A program made the position numbers and the translations under genes. This document shows, piece after piece, positions 45,422 to 53,382 of a DNA stretch of 64,000 nucleotides. Below the pieces are notes generated by a model that was not told the DNA's origin, made no database searches, and saw only the letters and a program-made list of their open reading frames with translations. The stretch lies in the NCBI GenBank assembly GCA_016188985.1, contig JACPGM010000053.1:4290-68289 (forward strand), written 5' to 3'. The first letter of the stretch is position 1. Each line of letters begins with the position of its first letter. This DNA comes from Lentisphaerota bacterium. Its GTDB lineage: Bacteria; Verrucomicrobiota; Kiritimatiellia; JAAZAB01.

Positions 45422-45546
45422 TTAGACTTTTTGCTTGTCGGCAGGGAGCCGGAAAACATATATTATCCGCCTAGCGGAGATGAAGCTACCCTGACAGAGC
45501 CGCCGGCTATGTGCTTGACGTGCGGATACTAACACCGGGATTTGGC

Positions 45547-47022
45547 ATGCGCCCTAACATTCTCGTTTTCTATACCGATCAGCAGCGTCAGGACAGCCTG
45601 GGTTGCTATGGCAACGTGATTGCGCAAACTCCGCATCTGGACGCCTTGGCCCAACGCGGACTTCTCTTTCACAACCACTACGTCAGCAACCCGGTCTGCA
45701 TGCCCAGCCGGGCTTCGTTTTTCACAGGGCGCCATTTACAGGCGCATCGCTTGATTGACAATGGCATTCCCCTACCGGAAACGGAAAAAACCCTGCCGGC
45801 AGTCCTGGCCGAACACGGCTATCAGACCCACTCCGTCGGCAAGATTCATCTGACGCCCTATCTGGCGCCGCTGGAAAGCGGCTGCAAGGAATCATGGGCC
45901 GTGTGGCGCAGCGGCGCCCTTGACCAATGGAATGGTCCTTATTATGGATTCGAGCGGGTGCGCCTGACGCTGGGTCATGGCGACGTGCCCTTCACGGCCG
46001 GCGGCCATTATGCGCGCTGGATCCGGGAGCGGGTGAAGGAACCCGAACGTCTGGCCGCAGCGGCGTGTGAGGCGCACAAGAAGCAGCCTTATCGCTCCAT
46101 CGTGCCCGTGGAACTCTATCCTTCCACCTATGTCGCTGAGGAGGCGATTCGTTTTCTGCGCGAGCGCGACCGGAAACGCCCGTTTTTCCTGTATGCGTCA
46201 TTCCCCGATCCGCACGCTCCCTTTACGCCGCCGACGGCCTATGCCGAGCGCTTCGCCGCGGCTAATTTTCCCAAACCGCATCGGCGCGAAGGCGAACACG
46301 ATAACCGGCCGTTTCATTACCGGAAAGCAATGACCGAGCGACTGTTTCCGGAAGACGGCGGCGCGCATTGTCCGCGCAATCTTTCGGCCGATAATTGGCG
46401 GCAGATTTATGCCGCCACTTATGGCATGGTGAGCCTGATTGACGAATGCGTGGGCCGGGTGCTGGCCTGCCTGGAAGCGGAAGGGTTGGCCGCAAACACT
46501 TTTGTCGTTTTCACGTCCGACCACGGCGATTTTCTGGGCGATCACTTCTTTCTCTATAAAGGTCCTCTGCCTTGTCGTTCGCTGCTGAATGTGCCTTTCA
46601 TCCTGGCGGGTCCCGGCTGCCGCGCCGGTGCGACTCAGACTGTCATGAGCAACGTGGATGTCATGCCGACTCTGTTGGATTTAGTCGGCCTTGCCCAGCC
46701 CGCGACGGTGCAAGGGCGTTCTTTCAAACCGGTAACGGCCGGGACGGCTGAACTGGATGAAGCTCCCGCGCTCTGTTGCGGGTGGAGCAAGGATTCGCCG
46801 CAGTATTACCATCAGAGCCTGTATTTCAGCCACTGGCGCATTACTTATTTTCCATTTCAGGATGATGGCGAGCTCTATGATTTGGAACGTGACCCGCACG
46901 AGCTTTGCAATCTATACCATGCGCCCGAGCAGCGCGCGGTGCGCGTTGAATTGCTTGAGCGGCTGTTGAAGGAGCTTGGCCGCGCCGAGCCTTGCCGGCC
47001 GCCGGTTATTTCCCCGTGGTGA
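45547..47022 (+). CDS. Sulfatase (arylsulfatase family)
   Basis: ILVFYTDQQRQD... CMPSRASFFTGRH (C-x-P-x-R FGly motif). Confidence 0.9.
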   Translation: MRPNILVFYTDQQRQDSLGCYGNVIAQTPHLDALAQRGLLFHNHYVSNPVCMPSRASFFTGRHLQAHRLIDNGIPLPETEKTLPAVLAEHGYQTHSVGKIHLTPYLAPLESGCKESWAVWRSGALDQWNGPYYGFERVRLTLGHGDVPFTAGGHYARWIRERVKEPERLAAAACEAHKKQPYRSIVPVELYPSTYVAEEAIRFLRERDRKRPFFLYASFPDPHAPFTPPTAYAERFAAANFPKPHRREGEHDNRPFHYRKAMTERLFPEDGGAHCPRNLSADNWRQIYAATYGMVSLIDECVGRVLACLEAEGLAANTFVVFTSDHGDFLGDHFFLYKGPLPCRSLLNVPFILAGPGCRAGATQTVMSNVDVMPTLLDLVGLAQPATVQGRSFKPVTAGTAELDEAPALCCGWSKDSPQYYHQSLYFSHWRITYFPFQDDGELYDLERDPHELCNLYHAPEQRAVRVELLERLLKELGRAEPCRPPVISPW

Positions 47023-47921: not shown

Positions 47922-48824
47922 ATGCGCTTATTCGTCCGCAAGAAATATACGGCCATCAAGGTCCAGAAAAAGGATTTGCCCAGCGGCTTGTGGGTAAAAT
48001 GCCAGGACTGCAACGAAATTGCCTATAAGCATGAAATAGATGCGCTCCAGGGTGTTTGCCCGAAATGCGGGTTTCATTTTCAGATTTTGCCTCAGGAGCG
48101 GCTCGCGCAGATGGTTGAAACAGGCTCATTCCAGGAATGGGATGCCGACCTGGTAAGCGCGGACCCGTTGGAATTCAACGGCCAGGTTTCTTATGTAGCC
48201 AAGTTGGCGGAGAACCGCCGGAAAGGCCCGCTCAAGGAGGCGGTCCTCTGCGGCCAGGGGCGCATGGGGCCGTTCACGGTGGCGCTGGGCATCATGGATT
48301 TCAATTTTCTGGGCGGCAGTATGGGCTCGGTGGTTGGCGAAAAAATCACCCGGCTGTTTGAGCGCGCCACCCGGCAACGTCTGGGGATCATCGTGGTCTG
48401 CGCCACGGGCGGCGCTCGGATGTACGAGGGGCTCTTCAGTCTGATGCAGATGGCCAAAACCAGCGCCGCCGTGGCGGCCCACGCCCAGGCCGCGCTGCCC
48501 TTCATTTCGGTATTGACCCATCCCTCCATGGCCGGGGTTATGGCCAGTTTTGCCACGCTGGGCGATGTCATCATTGCCGAGCCGAAGGCCCTCATCGGCT
48601 TTGCCGGCCCGCGGGTGATCAAGGAAACAACCCGCGAAGATATCCCCAAAGGATTTCAACGGTCGGAGTTTGTCCTCAAACATGGTCTTATTGATATGAT
48701 TGTTCCGCGCAAGGACTTGACCAGCACCCTGATCCGTCTGCTGGGTTACATGCTGCCCTTGGTAGAAGAAAAAGCAAACATTCAACATCCAACTCCGAAC
48801 AGCACAAGTCCAAACCAAGGATAG
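47922..48824 (+). CDS. accD: Acetyl-CoA carboxylase carboxyltransferase beta subunit
   Basis: N-terminal zinc ribbon CxxC...CPKCGFH, carboxyltransferase core; 300 aa. Confidence 0.93.
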   Translation: MRLFVRKKYTAIKVQKKDLPSGLWVKCQDCNEIAYKHEIDALQGVCPKCGFHFQILPQERLAQMVETGSFQEWDADLVSADPLEFNGQVSYVAKLAENRRKGPLKEAVLCGQGRMGPFTVALGIMDFNFLGGSMGSVVGEKITRLFERATRQRLGIIVVCATGGARMYEGLFSLMQMAKTSAAVAAHAQAALPFISVLTHPSMAGVMASFATLGDVIIAEPKALIGFAGPRVIKETTREDIPKGFQRSEFVLKHGLIDMIVPRKDLTSTLIRLLGYMLPLVEEKANIQHPTPNSTSPNQG

Positions 48825-49006
48825 AGTTCAGTGCTGGTCGCGGCGCGCCAGCTGTCGTCAAGCGATTATGTCCGGTACAACAGTCGACACCCTTTCCACA
48901 ATACAAACTATTTTTCGAGTTTTTCTTATTGTTTGCTACACGGCAGTATCACATCCTGCCGTTTGAAGTGTTGATTAATATCATGTTGGACAGCAGGAAG
49001 TAACCG

Positions 49007-49561
49007 ATGGTTTGGAGTAATCAACAGAATATTCGCTCGCGATCGTTCACTTGCGGCTACTGTGGCAACGTTGTCGCGTCCGGTGTTGGCTTTCTTCACC
49101 ACAATGACCTGGACAAACGCGTACACATCTGCCCACATTGTGATGAGCCGTCGTACATCACAAGCAAGAAGCAGGTTCCGGGTGTTGCGCCTGGCAATGA
49201 GATAGCGGCCCTTCCCGACGACATCGAGGCCCTTTACAAGGAGGCGCGCAACAGCGTCGCTGCGTCCGCCCACACAGGCGCCGTGCTGTTGTGCCGCAAG
49301 ATACTGATGAACACTGCGGTCTCGCAAGGTGCGCCTCAGAATCAGTCATTCCTCGACTATGTTCAGTACCTGGCCGATAACGGATATGTCCCACCAAAGG
49401 GCAAGGGCTGGGTAGACCATATCCGGAAGAAGGGAAACGAGGCTACACACGAGATCAAAGCCATGGGCAAGACCGACTCAGAGGAGCTCATTCTCTTTGT
49501 TGAGATGCTGTTGAAGTTCATTTATGAGTTTCCGAGTAAGATTCCTGCGAACAAGCCATGA
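49007..49561 (+). CDS. DUF4145 domain protein with N-terminal zinc ribbon
   Basis: CGYCGN...CPHCD zinc ribbon; C-terminal helical domain matching DUF4145 (often linked to restriction-modification loci). Confidence 0.55.
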   Translation: MVWSNQQNIRSRSFTCGYCGNVVASGVGFLHHNDLDKRVHICPHCDEPSYITSKKQVPGVAPGNEIAALPDDIEALYKEARNSVAASAHTGAVLLCRKILMNTAVSQGAPQNQSFLDYVQYLADNGYVPPKGKGWVDHIRKKGNEATHEIKAMGKTDSEELILFVEMLLKFIYEFPSKIPANKP

Positions 49562-49630
49562 CCTGCTGCCTAACAACGGCTTGCAGCGGAGGCCGCCGCG
49601 GCAGAAACCGTGTCGAGTAAGGCCGGAGGA

Positions 49631-50530
49631 TCAATATGTGAGGAGGAGGCGATCATGGACGACCTCATCCTCAAGCGATTCGCCCTCTCTCTGAAAACGC
49701 CGCAGCATGCTTCTGCCGCAATCCAAGAACACTTCTCGCTCAAATAGACCGTCCGGGATTCCCAGTTTACAGTCCACGCGACCGGATTTCTTTTTGCCGT
49801 CAATACTTAGGGCAACCCGAACACCGCGTGTCTTGCAGTAGGCAATGGCGCGCATCAACCGCTGCAAAGAGAAGTCTTGCCCCCGGTACAAGATTGCCTG
49901 ACTACAGACATAGGGCGGGTCGCAGTACACAAGATCTCTCTCCTTGGCCAGAGACATAGCCTCTTCAAAGTCCATCTGCCGGAAGTCCGCCCCTGCCGTC
50001 CGCCGCAGCCATATGTCAACACGCTGCGCGAATGATCCCGGCGCGATAGGGTCGTGAATGCCGCATGGCGTCGAAATGTACCCATCGCTCTTGCGAAACC
50101 GGACAACCCCTCCGTAGCAACTCCGGCAAATGAACAAGAGATCAGGGCCATTCGGCTTGGCGTTGTAGTTTGCCTTTATCTGCTCGTATCCAGCCGGTTT
50201 GCCTAATTCTCGGAATTCGGTGTACCGACTTCTGTACCACTCCGCGAGTTGGTTGGGGGAATCGTGAAGACACCGCCAAATCTCCATGAGCGGGCCGCAG
50301 ATATCGGAACCCACGGCAGCCGGAGGCTGAAGTGCTGCAAGAACGGCCCCACTTCCCAGGAACGGCTCCCGATATGTGTGAATGTCTGTCGGGAAAAACG
50401 ACGCTATCTTGTGAGCAAACCGTTGCTTGTTCCCTATCCACTTTAGAAGCTGGGTCTTGAACGGAGCCACGTGCTGGAACTCAGTTCCGTAGAACAGATC
50501 GAGAGTATCTTCTTCTTTGACTTTCATGAC
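49631..50530 (-). CDS. DNA adenine methyltransferase, Dam/D12 class (alpha-type N6-adenine MTase)
   Basis: N-terminal LKWIGNKQRFAHKI (motif I-like), catalytic DLVYCDPPY (DPPY); ~300 aa. Confidence 0.85.
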   Translation of the reverse strand, partial: VMKVKEEDTLDLFYGTEFQHVAPFKTQLLKWIGNKQRFAHKIASFFPTDIHTYREPFLGSGAVLAALQPPAAVGSDICGPLMEIWRCLHDSPNQLAEWYRSRYTEFRELGKPAGYEQIKANYNAKPNGPDLLFICRSCYGGVVRFRKSDGYISTPCGIHDPIAPGSFAQRVDIWLRRTAGADFRQMDFEEAMSLAKERDLVYCDPPYVCSQAILYRGQDFSLQRLMRAIAYCKTRGVRVALSIDGKKKSGRVDCKLGIPDGLFEREVFLDCGRSMLRRFQREGESLEDEVVHDRLLLTY

Positions 50531-50586
50531 GTGCCTACAATATCCCGATTTGGGATTATTGTCAACCATATTATATACTCCCTCAC

Positions 50587-50832
50587 GTGAAACACAACAG
50601 GTATGCGGCTAACGAGGAACATCTGCGGAGCTTGCTCCGGCAGAAACGAATACAGTGTGGCTTGACACAGGCCGCACTGGCGATTGTTCTTCGGAAACCC
50701 CAGTCCTTCGTAAGCAAGTACGAATCAGGGGAACGGCTTCTGTCGTTTGTCGAAACCATCGACGTCTGCCGAGCGCTGAACATCGACCCACGAACACTTC
50801 TCAAGGAGTATCTGCCACATCATGATGCCTGA
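50587..50832 (+). CDS. XRE-family HTH regulator, likely restriction-modification controller (C) protein
   Basis: 81 aa with HTH LTQAALAIVLRKPQSFVSKYESGER; divergent from the MTase and immediately upstream of and overlapping the next ORF. Confidence 0.7.
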   Translation: MKHNRYAANEEHLRSLLRQKRIQCGLTQAALAIVLRKPQSFVSKYESGERLLSFVETIDVCRALNIDPRTLLKEYLPHHDA

Positions 50833-51655
50833 CAAGAGATTTGTTGGCCTGCCGAAGCGGTTTTGGGCACTTGTCCGCCTGAGCGGACAGGAGTGCGGTT
50901 ATGCGAGTCAAGGCCAGATTACCATCCCAACGCGAGAAGCCGTGGCAGATGCCCTCACAACATTGGGACTGGTGCCCTCTGCCCTGGACACGCCTTTGCG
51001 GGGTGGTGGCACATGGAAGACACTCCTCGATTACTTCACGTTTCGGCGGGACCTGCTCCACCAGCATGTGGAACCCAACCTCATGGACGCTCCGCAGGCC
51101 AAGAAGGAGTTCGCCCGCCTCAAGCGCGAGTTGAAGCCGAGATGCCCGCTTCCTATGAACAAGCAGAAGGGGACAAAGAGGGCTCCCGCGTACCTGACTG
51201 GTATCGTAAACATGCTGATCGAGGCGAACGCTGCAGGCAAGCCGTGCGACTACGATCCGCGTGCGCTTACCACGGTTGCGGTCAACAGCGCGCCATTGCG
51301 CACTTTTGCACGCCGCATGGATGGCGCTTTTCCTTCTGTCATCAACCCAATCGCCGTGTGGGAAGTGAAAGAGTACTACTACACCACGACCTTCGGCAGC
51401 CGCGTAGCAGACGGTGTCTACGAGACGCTGCTCGACGGAATGGAGATCGAAGAACTCGTAGTGTCTGAGAAAGTTAACGTCCTTCACTACCTCATGATCG
51501 ACGCACGGTACACATGGTGGGACTGCGGGAAGTCGTACCTCTGCCGGGTGATCGACATGCTCCACATGGGCTACGTCGATGAAGTCCTTGTCGGCCGGGA
51601 AGTCCTCGCGCGTCTGCCAGTTCTTGTGAAGAAATGGACACGGAAGATGGCCTAA
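50822..51655 (+). CDS. Putative type II restriction endonuclease (PD-(D/E)xK-like)
   Basis: Position after the C-protein and opposite the Dam-like MTase; candidate D..ExK motif RRMDGAFPSVINPIAVWEVKEYYY; 277 aa. Confidence 0.5.
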   Translation: MMPDKRFVGLPKRFWALVRLSGQECGYASQGQITIPTREAVADALTTLGLVPSALDTPLRGGGTWKTLLDYFTFRRDLLHQHVEPNLMDAPQAKKEFARLKRELKPRCPLPMNKQKGTKRAPAYLTGIVNMLIEANAAGKPCDYDPRALTTVAVNSAPLRTFARRMDGAFPSVINPIAVWEVKEYYYTTTFGSRVADGVYETLLDGMEIEELVVSEKVNVLHYLMIDARYTWWDCGKSYLCRVIDMLHMGYVDEVLVGREVLARLPVLVKKWTRKMA

Positions 51656-51746
51656 CCAGCGCCTCAACCTTACGTTTTTACCTGGGCGGCAAAAACGACA
51701 GTGAGGCGTAACGATTAGCTGTTTACTTCTCCCCGTCTTTAAGAGC

Positions 51747-53063
51747 ATGACCAGCTTATCAGACTCGCTTTCCCGCCTGTATCGGCTGCATGCCGCCGGC
51801 ATCAAGTTGGGCCTGGATACCGAACGGGCACTGCTGGAGCTGTTGGGCCATCCGGAGCAAGGGCTGCGCTTTGTCCATGTGGCGGGCACTAACGGCAAGG
51901 GCTCGGTCTGCAGCATGCTGGAAGCGGTGCTGCGTTGTTCCGGGCTGAAAACCGGCCTCTATACCTCGCCGCATCTGGTGCGGTTCAATGAGCGCATCCG
52001 GATCAATGGGCAATGCATCGCGGACGAGGCGCTGGATAGACTCATCACGGAGGTTGAGCAACAGGCCCGGGCGCTGACCGCTCGGCCGGGAAGCACGGAA
52101 ATCACCTTCTTCGAGTTCACTACCGCTCTGGCCTTTGAGTGTTTCCGGCGGGAAAATGTTGAGATCGTTGTCCTGGAGACGGGCATGGGCGGGCGGCTTG
52201 ATGCCACCAACGTCATCACCCCGCTGGTTTCTGTTATCACCGGAGTTAGTCTTGAGCATACCGACTATCTCGGCAAAGACCTGAGCGCCATTGCCCTGGA
52301 AAAGGCGGGCATTATCAAGCCGGGCGTGCCGGTTGTCATTGGCGCGCTGACGGAAGAAATTCTGCCGGTTATCCAAAGCCTGGCCCGCGAGCGGCACGCC
52401 CGCCTGGTTCAGGCTGGTGAAGTCGTTTCGGTCCGGCGCAAATCGCAAAACCTCGATGGCCAACGCTGCCGGGTGGAATCGGCCGGCGCTTCGTATGGCG
52501 AGCTCTTTTGCCCGTTGCTCGGCCGGCATCAGCTTGAAAACCTGGGCGTGGCCGTGGCCGTCTTGGAAATCCTGAGGGATGAGTACGGACTGCCGGTGAC
52601 GGAACGAGCAGTGAAGGAGGGCATAAAGCGTGTGCGCTGGCCGGGCCGCTGCCAGGTGCTGGCGAATGAGCCCTTGACGGTCCTGGATGGCGCCCATAAT
52701 CCCGAAGGCGCGCGGATTCTGAACCAGGCATTGCGCGAATTGGCCGGGAATAAGCCTTGGGGACTGGTGCTGGGCATGTGCGCGGACAAGGACGTGAATG
52801 GTTTTTTGCGCGCTTTCAAGGGCAGAATCAAGCGCGTATGGACTGTGCCGCTTAATACTGAGCGCAACTTGTCGCCTGCCGCTATCGCCAAGCGGGCAGG
52901 CATATTGGGGTGCCCGGTCAAAACCGCTGCCGTTTCAGAGGCATTACGCGAGGCTGCGGCCTGGGCCAAAGACAATGGTGGCGTAGTCTGTATTACCGGC
53001 TCGCTCTACCTGGTGGGCGAAGTTCTAGAAAAGCGCGGCGCGATTGATCACCTCTTTGAATAA
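51747..53063 (+). CDS. folC: Bifunctional folylpolyglutamate synthase / dihydrofolate synthase
   Basis: Mur-ligase P-loop VHVAGTNGKGS; 438 aa. Confidence 0.92.
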   Translation: MTSLSDSLSRLYRLHAAGIKLGLDTERALLELLGHPEQGLRFVHVAGTNGKGSVCSMLEAVLRCSGLKTGLYTSPHLVRFNERIRINGQCIADEALDRLITEVEQQARALTARPGSTEITFFEFTTALAFECFRRENVEIVVLETGMGGRLDATNVITPLVSVITGVSLEHTDYLGKDLSAIALEKAGIIKPGVPVVIGALTEEILPVIQSLARERHARLVQAGEVVSVRRKSQNLDGQRCRVESAGASYGELFCPLLGRHQLENLGVAVAVLEILRDEYGLPVTERAVKEGIKRVRWPGRCQVLANEPLTVLDGAHNPEGARILNQALRELAGNKPWGLVLGMCADKDVNGFLRAFKGRIKRVWTVPLNTERNLSPAAIAKRAGILGCPVKTAAVSEALREAAAWAKDNGGVVCITGSLYLVGEVLEKRGAIDHLFE

Positions 53064-53283: not shown

Positions 53284-53366
53284 TCTTTAATGCGCCGGGG
53301 TGGCGAAATGGCAGACGCGCCGGACTCAAAATCCGGTGGTGGCAACACCATGAGGGTTCAAGTCCC
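53284..53366 (+). tRNA. tRNA-Leu (anticodon CAA)
   Basis: Hand-folded: acceptor GCCGGGG/CTCCGGC (one GU pair), D-arm GCG-AAATGGCAGA-CGC, anticodon stem CCGGA/TCCGG with loop CTCAAAA (CAA), long variable arm GGTGGCAACACC, T-arm GAGGG-TTCAAGT-CCCTC, discriminator A; CCA not encoded. Confidence 0.85.
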
Positions 53367-53382
53367 TCCTCCGGCACTATTT

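What the first reader, a model, noticed from the sequence alone, without database searches (positions are those of the whole stretch)
48825..51746. Restriction-modification cassette (Dam-like MTase, C-protein, putative REase) plus DUF4145 protein inserted between accD and folC
accD and folC are directly adjacent in many bacteria (the E. coli accD-folC operon). Here about 2.9 kb of apparently lower-GC DNA separates them. It encodes a zinc-ribbon/DUF4145 protein, a divergently oriented alpha-class N6-adenine MTase (DPPY), an XRE-type controller protein and a 277-aa ORF whose start overlaps the C gene. That ORF carries a candidate D..ExK motif (MDG...VWEVK) and is likely the cognate endonuclease. 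Specificity may be GATC-like, given the Dam family.
Basis: partly seen in the sequence, partly recalled or inferred. Interest (0 to 1): 0.55.

Follow-up and report, generated by a model that had tools for sequence, protein, structure and literature searches.

The report
BclI-family restriction-modification cassette plus RAZR-like gene
A 2.9-kb piece of mobile DNA carrying two ordinary anti-phage defences sits between accD and folC: a BclI-type restriction-modification system with its own controller protein, and a small RAZR-like zinc-finger RNase gene. It is well explained by known biology and is not a new kind of system.

Summary
Between accD (47922-48824) and folC (51747-53063) lie 2,922 bp with four intact genes.

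- **Gene content.** A zinc-ribbon/DUF4145 gene, a D12-class (Dam-like) N6-adenine methyltransferase on the minus strand, an 81-aa Xre-type controller (C) protein, and a 277-aa ORF that overlaps the C gene by 11 nt.
- **The 277-aa protein is a restriction endonuclease of the BclI family.**
  - It matches PADLOC REase_II PDLC03423 at 7e-61.
  - It is 42% identical over its full length to the 285-aa protein on pBcl1 of the BclI source strain, and 40% identical to the BmeTI gene on pBM69. Both enzymes cut TGATCA.
  - The AlphaFold model superposes best on type II PD-(D/E)xK enzymes; D167, E181 and K183 are invariant.
  - The methyltransferase is 48% identical to the pBcl1 adenine methylase.
- **Conservation and operator.** The M<-|->C->R layout recurs in 57 of 59 unrelated loci. 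A 17-bp palindromic operator (TATCC-N7-GGATA, window 50541-50557) is conserved in 65 loci. It differs from BclI's own PvuII-type C-box.
- **Insertion.** The closest relatives have accD and folC adjacent, so this is an insertion. The GC difference is marginal.
- **DUF4145 gene.** It is a separate, distant RAZR/PD-T7-4 homologue.

Verdict: a new member of a known kind. TGATCA specificity is likely but unproven.

The parts
47922..48824 (+). accD (acetyl-CoA carboxylase carboxyltransferase beta); left flank of the insertion
   Evidence: TIGR00515 7.7e-107, score 356.9 against cutoff 317. PF01039 and the Zn_ribbon_ACC domain.
48825..49006 (.). Left junction and intergenic DNA, 182 bp. The exact insertion boundary is not resolved.
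   Evidence: No terminal direct or inverted repeats pair this stretch with the right junction. The hairpin at 48939-48961 is not significant, z = -1.05. The intergenic DNA of relatives cannot be aligned to it.
49007..49561 (+). RAZR/PD-T7-4-like gene: an N-terminal Cys4 zinc ribbon (C16, C19, C42, C45) and a C-terminal DUF4145 (divergent HEPN) domain with R140-x7-H148
   Evidence: PF13643 6e-10. PADLOC PD-T7-4 1.8e-09, covering residues 8-172. PDB 9y9c (RAZR) E = 5.8e-4, with R...GN.A.H aligned. The Cys, R140 and H148 are invariant in 37 homologues. The best Foldseek hits are HEPN toxins, but only weakly.
49631..50527 (-). Alpha-class (D12, Dam-family) N6-adenine DNA methyltransferase, 298 aa. 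An upstream in-frame ATG at 50569 would give 312 aa. FLGSG lies at 50348-50362 and DPPY at 49910-49921.
   Evidence: PF02086 4.1e-23. TIGR00571 6.7e-29. PADLOC MTase_II PDLC03290 1e-64. 48% identity to the pBcl1 DNA adenine methylase, E = 4e-92. A 298-aa gene call in L001.
50537..50565 (-). Promoter-like site for the M gene: TTGACA, 17 nt, TATTGT. It would start transcription about 3 nt before the ATG at 50527. The C-box lies inside its spacer.
   Evidence: Promoter scan, 10 of 12 matches. The plus-strand 'tCAA' (= TTGA on the minus strand) at box +21..+24 and the A at -4/-1 are conserved in 72-80% of 65 loci.
50541..50557 (.). C-box operator: the 17-bp palindrome TATCCCGATTTGGGATT (family consensus TATCC-N7-GGATA)
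   Evidence: ATCCC-N5-GGGAT occurs once in the 64 kb, against 0.08 expected. It is found at a nearly fixed distance upstream of C in 65 distinct loci, with near-invariant positions while the flanks are unconserved.
50550..50579 (+). Promoter-like site for the C-R operon: TTGGGA, 18 nt, TATACT. Its -35 lies in the right arm of the C-box. The predicted start is at or next to the GTG at 50587, giving a leaderless mRNA.
   Evidence: Promoter scan, 9 of 12 matches. Other loci show the same geometry, for example L160 with TTGGGA-17-TATAAT-7-ATG. Leaderless C mRNAs are common (PMC2632904).
50569..50585 (.). Degenerate second operator position, TATTATATACTCCCTCA. Close relatives carry a good second box, TATCCTATATTGGGATA, 28 bp after the first and over the -10.
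   Evidence: Upstream-region alignment. In the window and in L003 the right half-site is lost.
50587..50832 (+). Controller (C) protein: 81 aa, Xre-type HTH, GTG start
   Evidence: HTH_3 3.2e-09. PADLOC Control_protein 9.6e-08. PDB C.AhdI 1.8e-05 and C.BclI 5e-04. Present directly upstream of R in 57 of 59 loci that have room.
50822..51655 (+). BclI-family type II restriction endonuclease, 277 aa (Pfam DUF7690 + DUF7687). Its start overlaps the end of C by 11 nt. Catalytic candidates are D167 (51320-51322) and E181-V-K183 (51362-51370).
51656..51746 (.). Right junction, 91 bp, with no convincing terminator. Read-through from C-R into folC is possible.
   Evidence: Fold z = -0.76. No terminator-like site in the scan.
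51747..53063 (+). folC (folylpolyglutamate/dihydrofolate synthase); right flank of the insertion
   Evidence: TIGR01499 4.1e-120. Mur_ligase_M and Mur_ligase_C domains.

Best explanation
The 2.9-kb segment is horizontally acquired DNA inserted into an ancestral comF-accD-folC gene string. It carries two independent defence modules.

**Module 1: a C-protein-regulated type IIP restriction-modification system of the BclI family.** The steps below are inferred from homology and anatomy.
1. In a naive cell the strong minus-strand promoter (TTGACA-17-TATTGT) drives the alpha-class m6A methyltransferase. The methyltransferase protects the host's sites, most probably TGATCA.
2. The plus-strand C-R promoter has a poor -35 (TTGGGA) and makes a leaderless GTG-start mRNA. 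C and R therefore accumulate slowly.
3. C then binds as a dimer to the 17-bp palindrome at 50541-50557. This site lies inside the spacer of the M promoter and overlaps the -35 of the C-R promoter. Occupancy is expected to shut down M transcription and boost C-R transcription.
4. R is translated from the same mRNA, and its start overlaps the C stop by 11 nt.
5. R is a PD-(D/E)xK enzyme (D167, E181, K183) that cuts unmethylated sites in incoming DNA. Like BclI, it probably leaves 5'-GATC overhangs.

**Module 2: the 184-aa zinc-ribbon/DUF4145 protein.** It is a distant RAZR (PD-T7-4) homologue. By analogy it would act as an abortive-infection HEPN RNase triggered by phage ring-forming proteins.

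**Shown:** gene content, homology, fold, operator conservation, cassette conservation, and the empty site in relatives.

**Inferred:** the recognition sequence, the direction of regulation, enzymatic activity, and RAZR-like function.
For: **R identity**
- PADLOC REase_II PDLC03423 at 7.1e-61. The same model scores 681 bits on the 285-aa gene of pBcl1 and 609 bits on the pBM69 gene.
- pBcl1 comes from B. caldolyticus NEB414, the BclI source. Its methylome shows m6A at TGATCA, assigned to a type II alpha methyltransferase (PMC5805893).
- pBM69 encodes BmeTI, a functional TGATCA system (bioRxiv 10.1101/2025.05.06.652373).
- R is 42% identical to the pBcl1 protein over its full length. M is 48% identical to the pBcl1 methylase.

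**Fold**
- AF2 pLDDT 88.7.
- D167, E181 and K183 are invariant.

**Architecture**
- The M<-|->C->R layout is present in 57 of 59 loci with room, in unrelated contexts and phyla.

**Operator and promoters**
-.

**Site avoidance**
- TGATCA is the most depleted 6-bp palindrome in pooled cassettes. O/E is 0.23, rank 1 of 64, and 50 of 56 full cassettes lack it.

**Insertion**
- accD and folC are 83-156 bp apart in three relatives at 80-82% AccD identity, and adjacent in L009 and L010.

**RAZR-like gene**
-, and PMC13017515.
Against: - **Specificity is not proven.**
  - 42% identity between endonucleases does not guarantee the same site.
  - GGATCC (O/E 0.25) and CGATCG (O/E 0.52) are also depleted in the cassettes.
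  - In the 14 closest cassettes TGATCA depletion is not significant, 3 observed against 6.8 expected.
  - The 64-kb window shows no TGATCA avoidance, 25 against 24.3.
- **Regulation.**
  - The C protein is only 29% identical to C.BclI, and the operator is of a different type. Regulation therefore cannot be transferred directly from BclI.
  - The second operator is degenerate in this window, so autorepression may be weak or absent.
  - A GTG-start leaderless mRNA is unusual.
- **Insertion.**
  - No integrase, transposase or target-site duplication explains how the insertion happened.
  - The GC deviation is only -1.3 sd.
- **RAZR assignment.**
  - It rests on weak similarity, E = 5.8e-4 to 9y9c.
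  - Foldseek hits all have E > 0.1.
  - The model has pLDDT 74.
Confidence: 0.85

Rival explanations
1. It is the same kind of R-M system, but its recognition sequence is not TGATCA. The sequence could be another GATC-containing palindrome (NGATCN or RGATCY-like) or plain GATC.
For: R is only 40-42% identical to the two characterised TGATCA enzymes. The N-terminal DUF7690 domain is poorly conserved. GGATCC and CGATCG are also depleted in the pooled cassettes. The methyltransferase also matches generic Dam/DpnM models.
Against: M matches the BclI-type model PDLC03290 far better (1e-64) than the Dam-like model PDLC03294 (2.4e-32). M is 48% identical to the pBcl1 methylase over its whole length, including the region after DPPY. 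The catalytic/C-terminal half of R is very highly conserved with the pBcl1 protein. TGATCA ranks first of 64 palindromes for depletion in the cassettes.
Confidence: 0.3
2. The cassette is a decaying or silenced remnant. R would be inactive or not expressed, leaving in effect an orphan methyltransferase plus a regulator.
For: The second operator is degenerate in this lineage. The C gene starts with GTG on a putative leaderless mRNA. At least one close relative locus (L003/L089) has an M gene that aligns only from residue 105 and sits beside a transposase.
Against: All three ORFs are full length with no frameshifts or stops. Every invariant residue of the family is retained in the window's R, including D167, E181 and K183. 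The M motifs FLGSG and DPPY are intact. The operator has one mismatch to the consensus, GGATT, and the same variant occurs in many other loci.
Confidence: 0.1
3. The segment is ancestral at this site and was lost in relatives, rather than inserted here.
For: The GC content is not clearly foreign. There are no mobility genes or repeats at the borders. The nearest available relatives are only 80-82% identical in AccD, so there is no within-species comparison.
Against: Five of the five closest relatives have accD and folC adjacent. The same M-C-R cassette, at 56-88% protein identity, sits in dozens of unrelated genomic contexts in other phyla. The DUF4145 gene likewise occurs alone in unrelated contexts.
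Confidence: 0.05

Closest known systems
BclI restriction-modification system (pBcl1 of [Bacillus] caldolyticus NEB414; T^GATCA, m6A) and its isoschizomer BmeTI (pBM69 of Bacillus methanolicus MGA3)
   Same: - Same three-gene layout, M<-|->C->R.
- R is 42% and 40% identical over its full length, with the same Pfam pair DUF7690 + DUF7687 and the same PADLOC model.
- M is 48% identical and belongs to the same alpha/D12 class.
- In both, the cassette has no TGATCA site of its own.
   Different: - The C protein is only 29% identical to C.BclI.
- The operators differ. BclI and BmeTI carry a PvuII-type C-box (AGTCTGTAGACTTATAG). This cassette has a TATCC-N7-GGATA palindrome.
- In BclI, C and R are separated by 2 nt. 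Here they overlap by 11 nt.
- The host is a Gram-negative Lentisphaerae/Kiritimatiellia-like MAG and the cassette is chromosomal, not on a Bacillus plasmid.
- Specificity has not been verified here.
EcoRV-type regulatory layout: a divergent D12-class M gene and a C-R operon, with palindromic C-boxes in the short shared control region
   Same: - A divergent M gene and C-R operon share one compact control region.
- The operators are palindromic rather than PvuII-like. C.EcoRV is the archetype of a separate, palindromic C-box group (PMC2175313; PMC2632904).
- The distal operator is sufficient for activation in EcoRV.
- From my own recollection of Semenova et al. 2005, which is not held in the library, C binding there also lowers M transcription.
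   Different: - The endonuclease is unrelated to R.EcoRV: no PDB sequence hit at E <= 10.
- I could not retrieve the EcoRV C-box sequence. Whether TATCC-N7-GGATA belongs to Sorokin's motif 7, 8 or 10, or is new, is untested.
RAZR (PD-T7-4), the ring-activated zinc-finger RNase of E. coli (PDB 9y9c)
   Same: - An N-terminal Cys4 zinc ribbon, a linker, and a C-terminal DUF4145/HEPN domain.
- The catalytic R-x7-H motif is conserved: R140/H148 here against R146/H154 in RAZR (PMC13017515).
- It is a single-gene module found in variable contexts.
   Different: - It is shorter, 184 aa against 219 aa, and the sequence similarity is weak (E = 5.8e-4; PADLOC 1.8e-09).
- The structural match to HEPN toxins is not significant.
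- No functional data exist for this clade.
Type II PD-(D/E)xK endonucleases of the EcoRI/NgoMIV structural branch (BstEII, NgoMIV, BsoBI, PspGI, SgrAI, Cfr10I, Bse634I)
   Same: - These enzymes cut to leave 5' overhangs of 4-5 nt, as BclI does.
   Different: - Only 9-14% sequence identity, with no detectable sequence homology even with a profile.
- The N-terminal helical domain (DUF7690) has no counterpart among the hits.

Membership tests
BclI-family type IIP restriction endonuclease | Full-length sequence homology to the endonuclease genes of characterised TGATCA systems (BclI, BmeTI) | tested here: met
   42% identity, E = 1e-74, to the pBcl1 285-aa protein. 40% identity to the pBM69 gene. 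The same PADLOC model PDLC03423 applies: 7.1e-61 here, against 681 and 609 bits for the two reference proteins.
BclI-family type IIP restriction endonuclease | PD-(D/E)xK nuclease fold with conserved catalytic D...(D/E)xK | tested here: met
   [not shown]
BclI-family type IIP restriction endonuclease | Adjacent cognate methyltransferase homologous to M.BclI | tested here: met
   48% identity, E = 4e-92, to the pBcl1 DNA adenine methylase. An M homologue lies next to R in 59 of 59 loci with room upstream.
BclI-family type IIP restriction endonuclease | Recognition and cleavage of T^GATCA, blocked by m6A | tested here: inconclusive
   The only evidence is indirect. TGATCA is the most depleted palindrome in pooled cassettes, O/E 0.23, but GGATCC is similar. 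The signal is not significant in the closest clade. There is no avoidance in the window. Biochemistry or a methylome is needed.
Alpha-class (D12/Dam-family) N6-adenine DNA methyltransferase | D12 domain with the AdoMet motif (FxGxG) N-terminal to the catalytic DPPY | tested here: met
   PF02086 4.1e-23. TIGR00571 101 bits, below the subfamily cutoff of 114.85. FLGSG at residues 56-60 and DPPY at 203-206 of the 298-aa form. DpnM (2dpm) 5.9e-12.
R-M controller (C) proteins | Small Xre-type HTH protein encoded immediately upstream of R and in the same orientation | tested here: met
   81 aa, HTH_3. PADLOC Control_protein 9.6e-08. C.AhdI 1.8e-05 and C.BclI 5e-04. 11-nt overlap with R. The arrangement is conserved in 57 of 59 loci.
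R-M controller (C) proteins | Conserved palindromic operator (C-box) just upstream of the C gene, overlapping its promoter | tested here: met
   TATCC-N7-GGATA at 50541-50557. It is conserved in 65 loci with near-invariant positions, unique in the window, and overlaps both promoter-like sites.
R-M controller (C) proteins | C-dependent activation of C-R transcription, and repression at high C or of M | not testable with these tools
   Inferred only from the position of the operator relative to the promoter hexamers.
C.PvuII/C.BclI-type C-box (two GACT...AGTC operators separated by a GT-containing spacer) | 35-bp double-box motif with a conserved central GTG/TGTA | tested here: not met
   pBcl1 and pBM69 show this motif. 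The window and its 65 relatives do not: they have a single 17-bp palindrome, and only in close relatives a second copy 28 bp downstream.
RAZR / PD-T7-4 (zinc-finger + DUF4145 HEPN RNase) | N-terminal Cys4 zinc ribbon plus C-terminal DUF4145 with the catalytic R-x7-H | tested here: met
   C16, C19, C42, C45, R140 and H148 are all invariant in 37 homologues. PF13643 6e-10. The R...H motif aligns to 9y9c.
RAZR / PD-T7-4 (zinc-finger + DUF4145 HEPN RNase) | Significant overall similarity to experimentally characterised RAZR | tested here: inconclusive
   PADLOC PD-T7-4 1.8e-09. PDB 9y9c E = 5.8e-4 over residues 30-151. The Foldseek best hits are HEPN toxins, but with E from 0.17 upward. Model pLDDT is 74.
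RAZR / PD-T7-4 (zinc-finger + DUF4145 HEPN RNase) | Phage-triggered RNase activity and abortive infection | not testable with these tools
   Known only for the E. coli protein (PMC13017515).
Horizontally acquired genomic islet | Empty site in related genomes | tested here: met
   accD and folC are separated by 83-156 bp in L171-L173, at 80-82% AccD identity. They are adjacent in L009 and L010.
Horizontally acquired genomic islet | Deviant base composition | tested here: inconclusive
   54.6% against 57.5% GC, -1.3 sd. 12% of equal-sized windows are lower.
Horizontally acquired genomic islet | Mobility genes, or terminal repeats / target-site duplication | tested here: not met
   There is no integrase or transposase among the four ORFs. 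No convincing flanking direct or inverted repeats.

The most novel reading that the evidence does not exclude
The TATCC-N7-GGATA palindrome may be a C-box class that has not been described. It would work as a single-site toggle. It sits inside the 17-bp spacer of the methyltransferase promoter and also overlaps the -35 of the divergent, crossing C-R promoter. One C dimer would therefore switch RNA polymerase from M to C-R. This regulatory module has replaced the PvuII-type module on the same BclI-family R and M genes, in a family with thousands of members (6,829 R homologues at E <= 0.001). That would be evidence that regulatory and enzymatic modules of R-M systems are exchanged independently.
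Probability: 0.3. Interest if true: 0.35.

Novelty: new member of a known kind. Interest (0 to 1): 0.22.

Why it matters
The value is mainly for annotation.

- **Pfam and NCBI names.** The analysis links the Pfam families DUF7687 and DUF7690, and the NCBI names 'hypothetical protein' and 'DUF7687 domain-containing protein', to the BclI family of type II restriction endonucleases. It also gives a catalytic triad (D167, E181, K183 in this protein) and a confident PD-(D/E)xK model. The family is large: 6,829 proteins at E <= 0.001, with members in MAGs labelled Lentisphaerae, Verrucomicrobiia, Kiritimatiellia and Gammaproteobacteria.
- **Operator and promoter layout.** It documents a well-conserved operator and promoter layout for the associated C proteins. 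This could be tested directly as a compact genetic switch.
- **Host genome.** A two-system defence islet has split a conserved accD-folC gene pair. This may affect folC expression.

None of this challenges current understanding.

Tried and rejected
- **PDB by sequence.** Sequence and profile searches of R against all PDB chains found nothing meaningful. The family has no solved structure, and only fold comparison was informative.
- **NCBIfam.** No model for R.
- **Literature.** A search for 'DUF7687' found nothing.
- **AlphaFold database.** The afdb50 fold library was unavailable.
- **Exact-sequence look-ups.** Look-ups of the window's AccD and FolC failed. I went through homologues instead.
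- **GC content.** It does not discriminate as evidence of foreign origin.
- **Island borders.** A search for terminal repeats or a target-site duplication found only short chance-level matches.
- **Terminators.** Hairpins after accD, between the convergent DUF4145 and M genes, and after R are not better than shuffled sequence.
- **TGATCA avoidance in the host window.** None seen.
- **Avoidance in flanks of cassette-bearing loci.** Modest, and shared with the other NGATCN palindromes.
- **Phage and plasmid collections.** No homologue of R in the phage collection, and no nucleotide-level match of the island in plasmids.
- **EcoRV paper.** The EcoRV regulation paper needed to compare C-box sequences is not held.
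- **DUF4145 as part of the R-M cassette.** I considered this (DUF4145 also occurs at HsdR N-termini) and rejected it. The gene is absent from all other cassette loci, and its homologues sit in unrelated contexts.

Full report
**Observation**

- accD lies at 47922-48824 (+). It scores TIGR00515 7.7e-107, above the curated cutoff.
- folC lies at 51747-53063 (+), with TIGR01499 4.1e-120.
- Between them are 2,922 bp holding four intact ORFs:
  - a 184-aa zinc-ribbon/DUF4145 protein at 49007-49561 (+);
  - a D12-class N6-adenine methyltransferase on the minus strand at 49631-50569, or more likely starting at the internal ATG at 50527;
  - an 81-aa Xre-type HTH protein at 50587-50832 (+);
  - a 277-aa ORF at 50822-51655 (+) that overlaps the HTH gene by 11 nt.

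One item did not hold up well, the 'lower GC'. The segment is 54.6% GC and the window 57.5%. That is only 1.3 sd below the mean for segments of this size, and 12% of such segments are lower.

**The 277-aa protein is a restriction endonuclease**

Pfam sees only two domains of unknown function, DUF7690 (1.6e-14) and DUF7687 (2.6e-82). NCBIfam has no model. PADLOC's REBASE-derived model REase_II PDLC03423 matches end to end at 7.1e-61.

The structural evidence agrees.
- An AlphaFold model built on 46 homologues is confident: pLDDT 88.7, pTM 0.88.
- Foldseek's best hit is also BstEII.
All three residues are invariant in the alignment. D167 opens a short strand and ExK lies in the following strand, the canonical placement.
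- Sequence and profile searches of the PDB find nothing, so this family has no solved structure.

**Which endonuclease family**

A tblastn search of plasmids gave seven hits.
- The best is a 285-aa 'hypothetical protein' on pBcl1 of [Bacillus] caldolyticus NEB414: 42% identity over 97% of the query, E = 1e-74 in pairwise BLASTP.
  - NEB414 is the original BclI (T^GATCA) producer.
  - Its methylome shows m6A at TGATCA, assigned to a type II alpha methyltransferase (PMC5805893).
- The second hit (40%) is on pBM69 of Bacillus methanolicus MGA3.
  - pBM69 encodes BmeTI, a BclI isoschizomer.
  - Curing of pBM69 abolishes discrimination against a TGATCA-bearing plasmid (bioRxiv 10.1101/2025.05.06.652373).
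- Both Bacillus proteins score 681 and 609 bits on PDLC03423 and carry DUF7690 + DUF7687. That PADLOC model is in effect the R.BclI model.
- Both plasmids have the same layout as the window, M<-|->C->R.
- The window's methyltransferase is 48% identical to the pBcl1 adenine methylase along its whole length, E = 4e-92. It matches the corresponding PADLOC model (PDLC03290, 1e-64) far better than the Dam-like model (PDLC03294, 2.4e-32).

The system is therefore a member of the BclI family, and TGATCA is the most likely site.

**How firm is TGATCA?**

Not firm. 42% identity does not fix specificity. I looked for restriction-site avoidance.
- In about 149 kb of pooled M-C-R cassettes from about 80 loci, TGATCA is the most depleted of the 64 six-base palindromes. 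It occurs 10 times against 43.6 expected, O/E 0.23.
- 50 of 56 full-length cassettes lack it. The BclI and BmeTI cassettes and the window's whole island also lack it.
- GGATCC is depleted about as much (O/E 0.25) and CGATCG somewhat.
- In the 14 closest cassettes the effect is not significant, 3 against 6.8.
- The sequences are related to each other, so the z-scores are inflated.
- The 64-kb window itself shows no avoidance, 25 against 24.3. That fits a recent acquisition.

I put the probability of TGATCA at roughly 0.6-0.65.

**A conserved, mobile three-gene cassette**

The endonuclease family is large: 6,829 proteins at E <= 0.001. The 120 best hits are 63-100% identical and come from MAGs labelled Lentisphaerae, Verrucomicrobiia, Kiritimatiellia and Gammaproteobacteria.

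In 80 metagenomic loci plus three from exact-protein look-ups, every locus with room upstream (59 of 59) has a homologous D12 methyltransferase next to R. In 57 of them the HTH gene sits between the two, divergent from M and abutting R. The surrounding genes differ completely from locus to locus. The DUF4145 gene occurs only in the window.

**The operator (C-box)**

I aligned the DNA upstream of the C genes.
- A 17-bp palindrome with consensus TATCC-N7-GGATA is present in 65 distinct loci at a nearly fixed distance. Its centre is mostly about 270-280 bp before the R start.
- Several positions are invariant (A2, T3, C5, G13, T16) while the flanks are unconserved.
- In the window it is TATCCCGATTTGGGATT at 50541-50557. 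The core ATCCC-N5-GGGAT occurs once in 64 kb, against 0.08 expected.

The promoter scan places two crossing, divergent promoter-like sites on it.
- On the minus strand: TTGACA (from 50565), 17 nt, TATTGT (to 50537), matching 10 of 12.
  - It would start transcription about 3 nt before the ATG at 50527.
  - The palindrome lies in its spacer.
- On the plus strand: TTGGGA (50550-50555, inside the right arm of the palindrome), 18 nt, TATACT (to 50579).
  - The start would fall at or next to the GTG at 50587.
  - That gives a leaderless mRNA, as is common for C genes (PMC2632904).
- The minus-strand -35 appears as a conserved 'tCAA' on the plus strand in 72-74% of loci. The A residues that make the minus-strand -10 (TAttnT) are conserved in 74-80%.
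- Close relatives carry a second good copy of the palindrome 28 bp downstream, over the -10 and just before the ATG. In the window and in L003 its right half is lost.

The BclI and BmeTI plasmids have a quite different, PvuII-type C-box (AGTCTGTAGACTTATAG). Their C protein is only 29% identical to the window's. The regulatory module has therefore been exchanged on otherwise homologous R and M genes.

**Mechanism**

The steps below are inferred unless marked as shown.
1. On entry into a new cell, the good minus-strand promoter makes the methyltransferase, which protects the chromosome.
2. The weak plus-strand promoter and the leaderless GTG start delay C and R.
3. C then occupies the palindrome. 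This blocks the M promoter, whose spacer and -10 are covered, and assists RNA polymerase at the poor -35 of the C-R promoter.
4. R is made from the same transcript. Its start overlaps the C stop by 11 nt (shown), and an AAGGAG lies 14 nt upstream.
5. R cuts unmethylated sites.

This is the general logic established for C-dependent systems (PMC2175313; PMC2632904). A divergent M gene sharing a control region with palindromic boxes resembles EcoRV most. I could not retrieve the EcoRV operator sequence to compare.

**Insertion between accD and folC**

- The window's AccD has no close relative among GTDB species representatives; the best is 63%. In the two best loci, comF, accD and folC are contiguous.
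- A search of the larger protein collection found AccD homologues at 80-82% identity.
  - In all three contigs examined the order is accA, LysM/YkuD, comF-like, accD, folC.
  - Only 83-156 bp separate accD and folC in these contigs.
  - They carry no defence genes.
- Together with the cassette's presence in dozens of unrelated contexts, this makes gain in the window's lineage far more likely than repeated loss.
- How it inserted is unknown. There is no recombinase gene, and no target duplication or terminal repeats.
- No convincing terminator follows R. C-R transcription may therefore read into folC.

**The DUF4145 gene**

- The protein has four invariant cysteines (C16, C19, C42, C45) and an invariant R140-x7-H148 in a DUF4145 domain.
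- It matches PADLOC PD-T7-4 at 1.8e-09.
- It matches the solved RAZR protein, 9y9c, at E = 5.8e-4 with the R...GN.A.H motif aligned.
- RAZR is a zinc-finger/HEPN RNase. It assembles on phage ring proteins and cleaves RNA in an abortive-infection response (PMC13017515).
- The AlphaFold model is mediocre (pLDDT 74). Its best Foldseek hits are HEPN toxins, but not significantly so.
- Homologues at 57-80% identity are common, single, and sit in unrelated contexts.

I regard it as a separate, distantly RAZR-like defence gene that shares the islet with the R-M cassette.

**Verdict**

The finding is correct and is now well explained. It is a new member of a known kind, not a new system.

The useful by-products are:
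- the identification of Pfam DUF7687 and DUF7690 as the BclI endonuclease family, with a catalytic triad and a fold;
- a well-supported operator and promoter layout for its associated C proteins, which may or may not match a published C-box class.

Noticed in passing
whole window (1-64000): CAGCTG (1 observed against 12.4 expected) and CTCGAG (2 against 12.2) are the most depleted 6-bp palindromes in the window. This suggests past or present PvuII-like and XhoI-like restriction pressure in this lineage. Both are also depleted in 1 Mb of control loci from related phyla.
   Followed up: no
L001 (= window 48620-51821): A Logan contig from SRR12113422 carries exactly the island plus about 200 bp of accD and about 75 bp of folC, and ends there. 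A second contig (L002, SRR12113401) carries only the R gene, preceded by the C gene and a short 5' fragment of M. The breaks just inside the flanking genes could mark assembly-graph branches caused by co-existing strains with and without the island.
   Followed up: no
window 53294-53377: tRNA-Leu(CAA) lies about 230 bp downstream of folC. It is not adjacent to the island, so it is not an obvious integration site.
   Followed up: partly
L003/L004/L089, M gene region (L003 4817-5748): In the relative closest in C (94%) and R (85%), the methyltransferase aligns only from residue 105, is called as 252 aa, and an rve-family transposase lies just downstream of R. The cassette may be decaying or rearranged.
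   Followed up: no
L153 and L168: Two loci have R and a homologous M but no detectable C gene and no TATCC-N7-GGATA box. In L153 the M gene lies downstream of R. These are variant architectures within the family.
   Followed up: no
L169 3660-3720 and L170 2660-2720: The BclI and BmeTI plasmids carry a PvuII-type C-box (AGTCTGTAGACTTATAG). The R and M genes are homologous to the window's, but the C protein and operator belong to a different class. This is an apparent swap of the regulatory module.
   Followed up: partly
window 50569-50585: The position where close relatives have a second operator copy over the -10 is degenerate here. The right half-site is replaced by CCTCA, which on the minus strand forms a GAGGGAG Shine-Dalgarno-like sequence in front of the alternative M start at 50569.
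   Followed up: partly
window 45511-47022: A 503-aa ORF sits immediately upstream of the comF-like gene. In the closest relatives accA and a LysM/YkuD gene occupy that position instead, so synteny upstream of comF differs. The ORF was not scanned against any family library.
   Followed up: no
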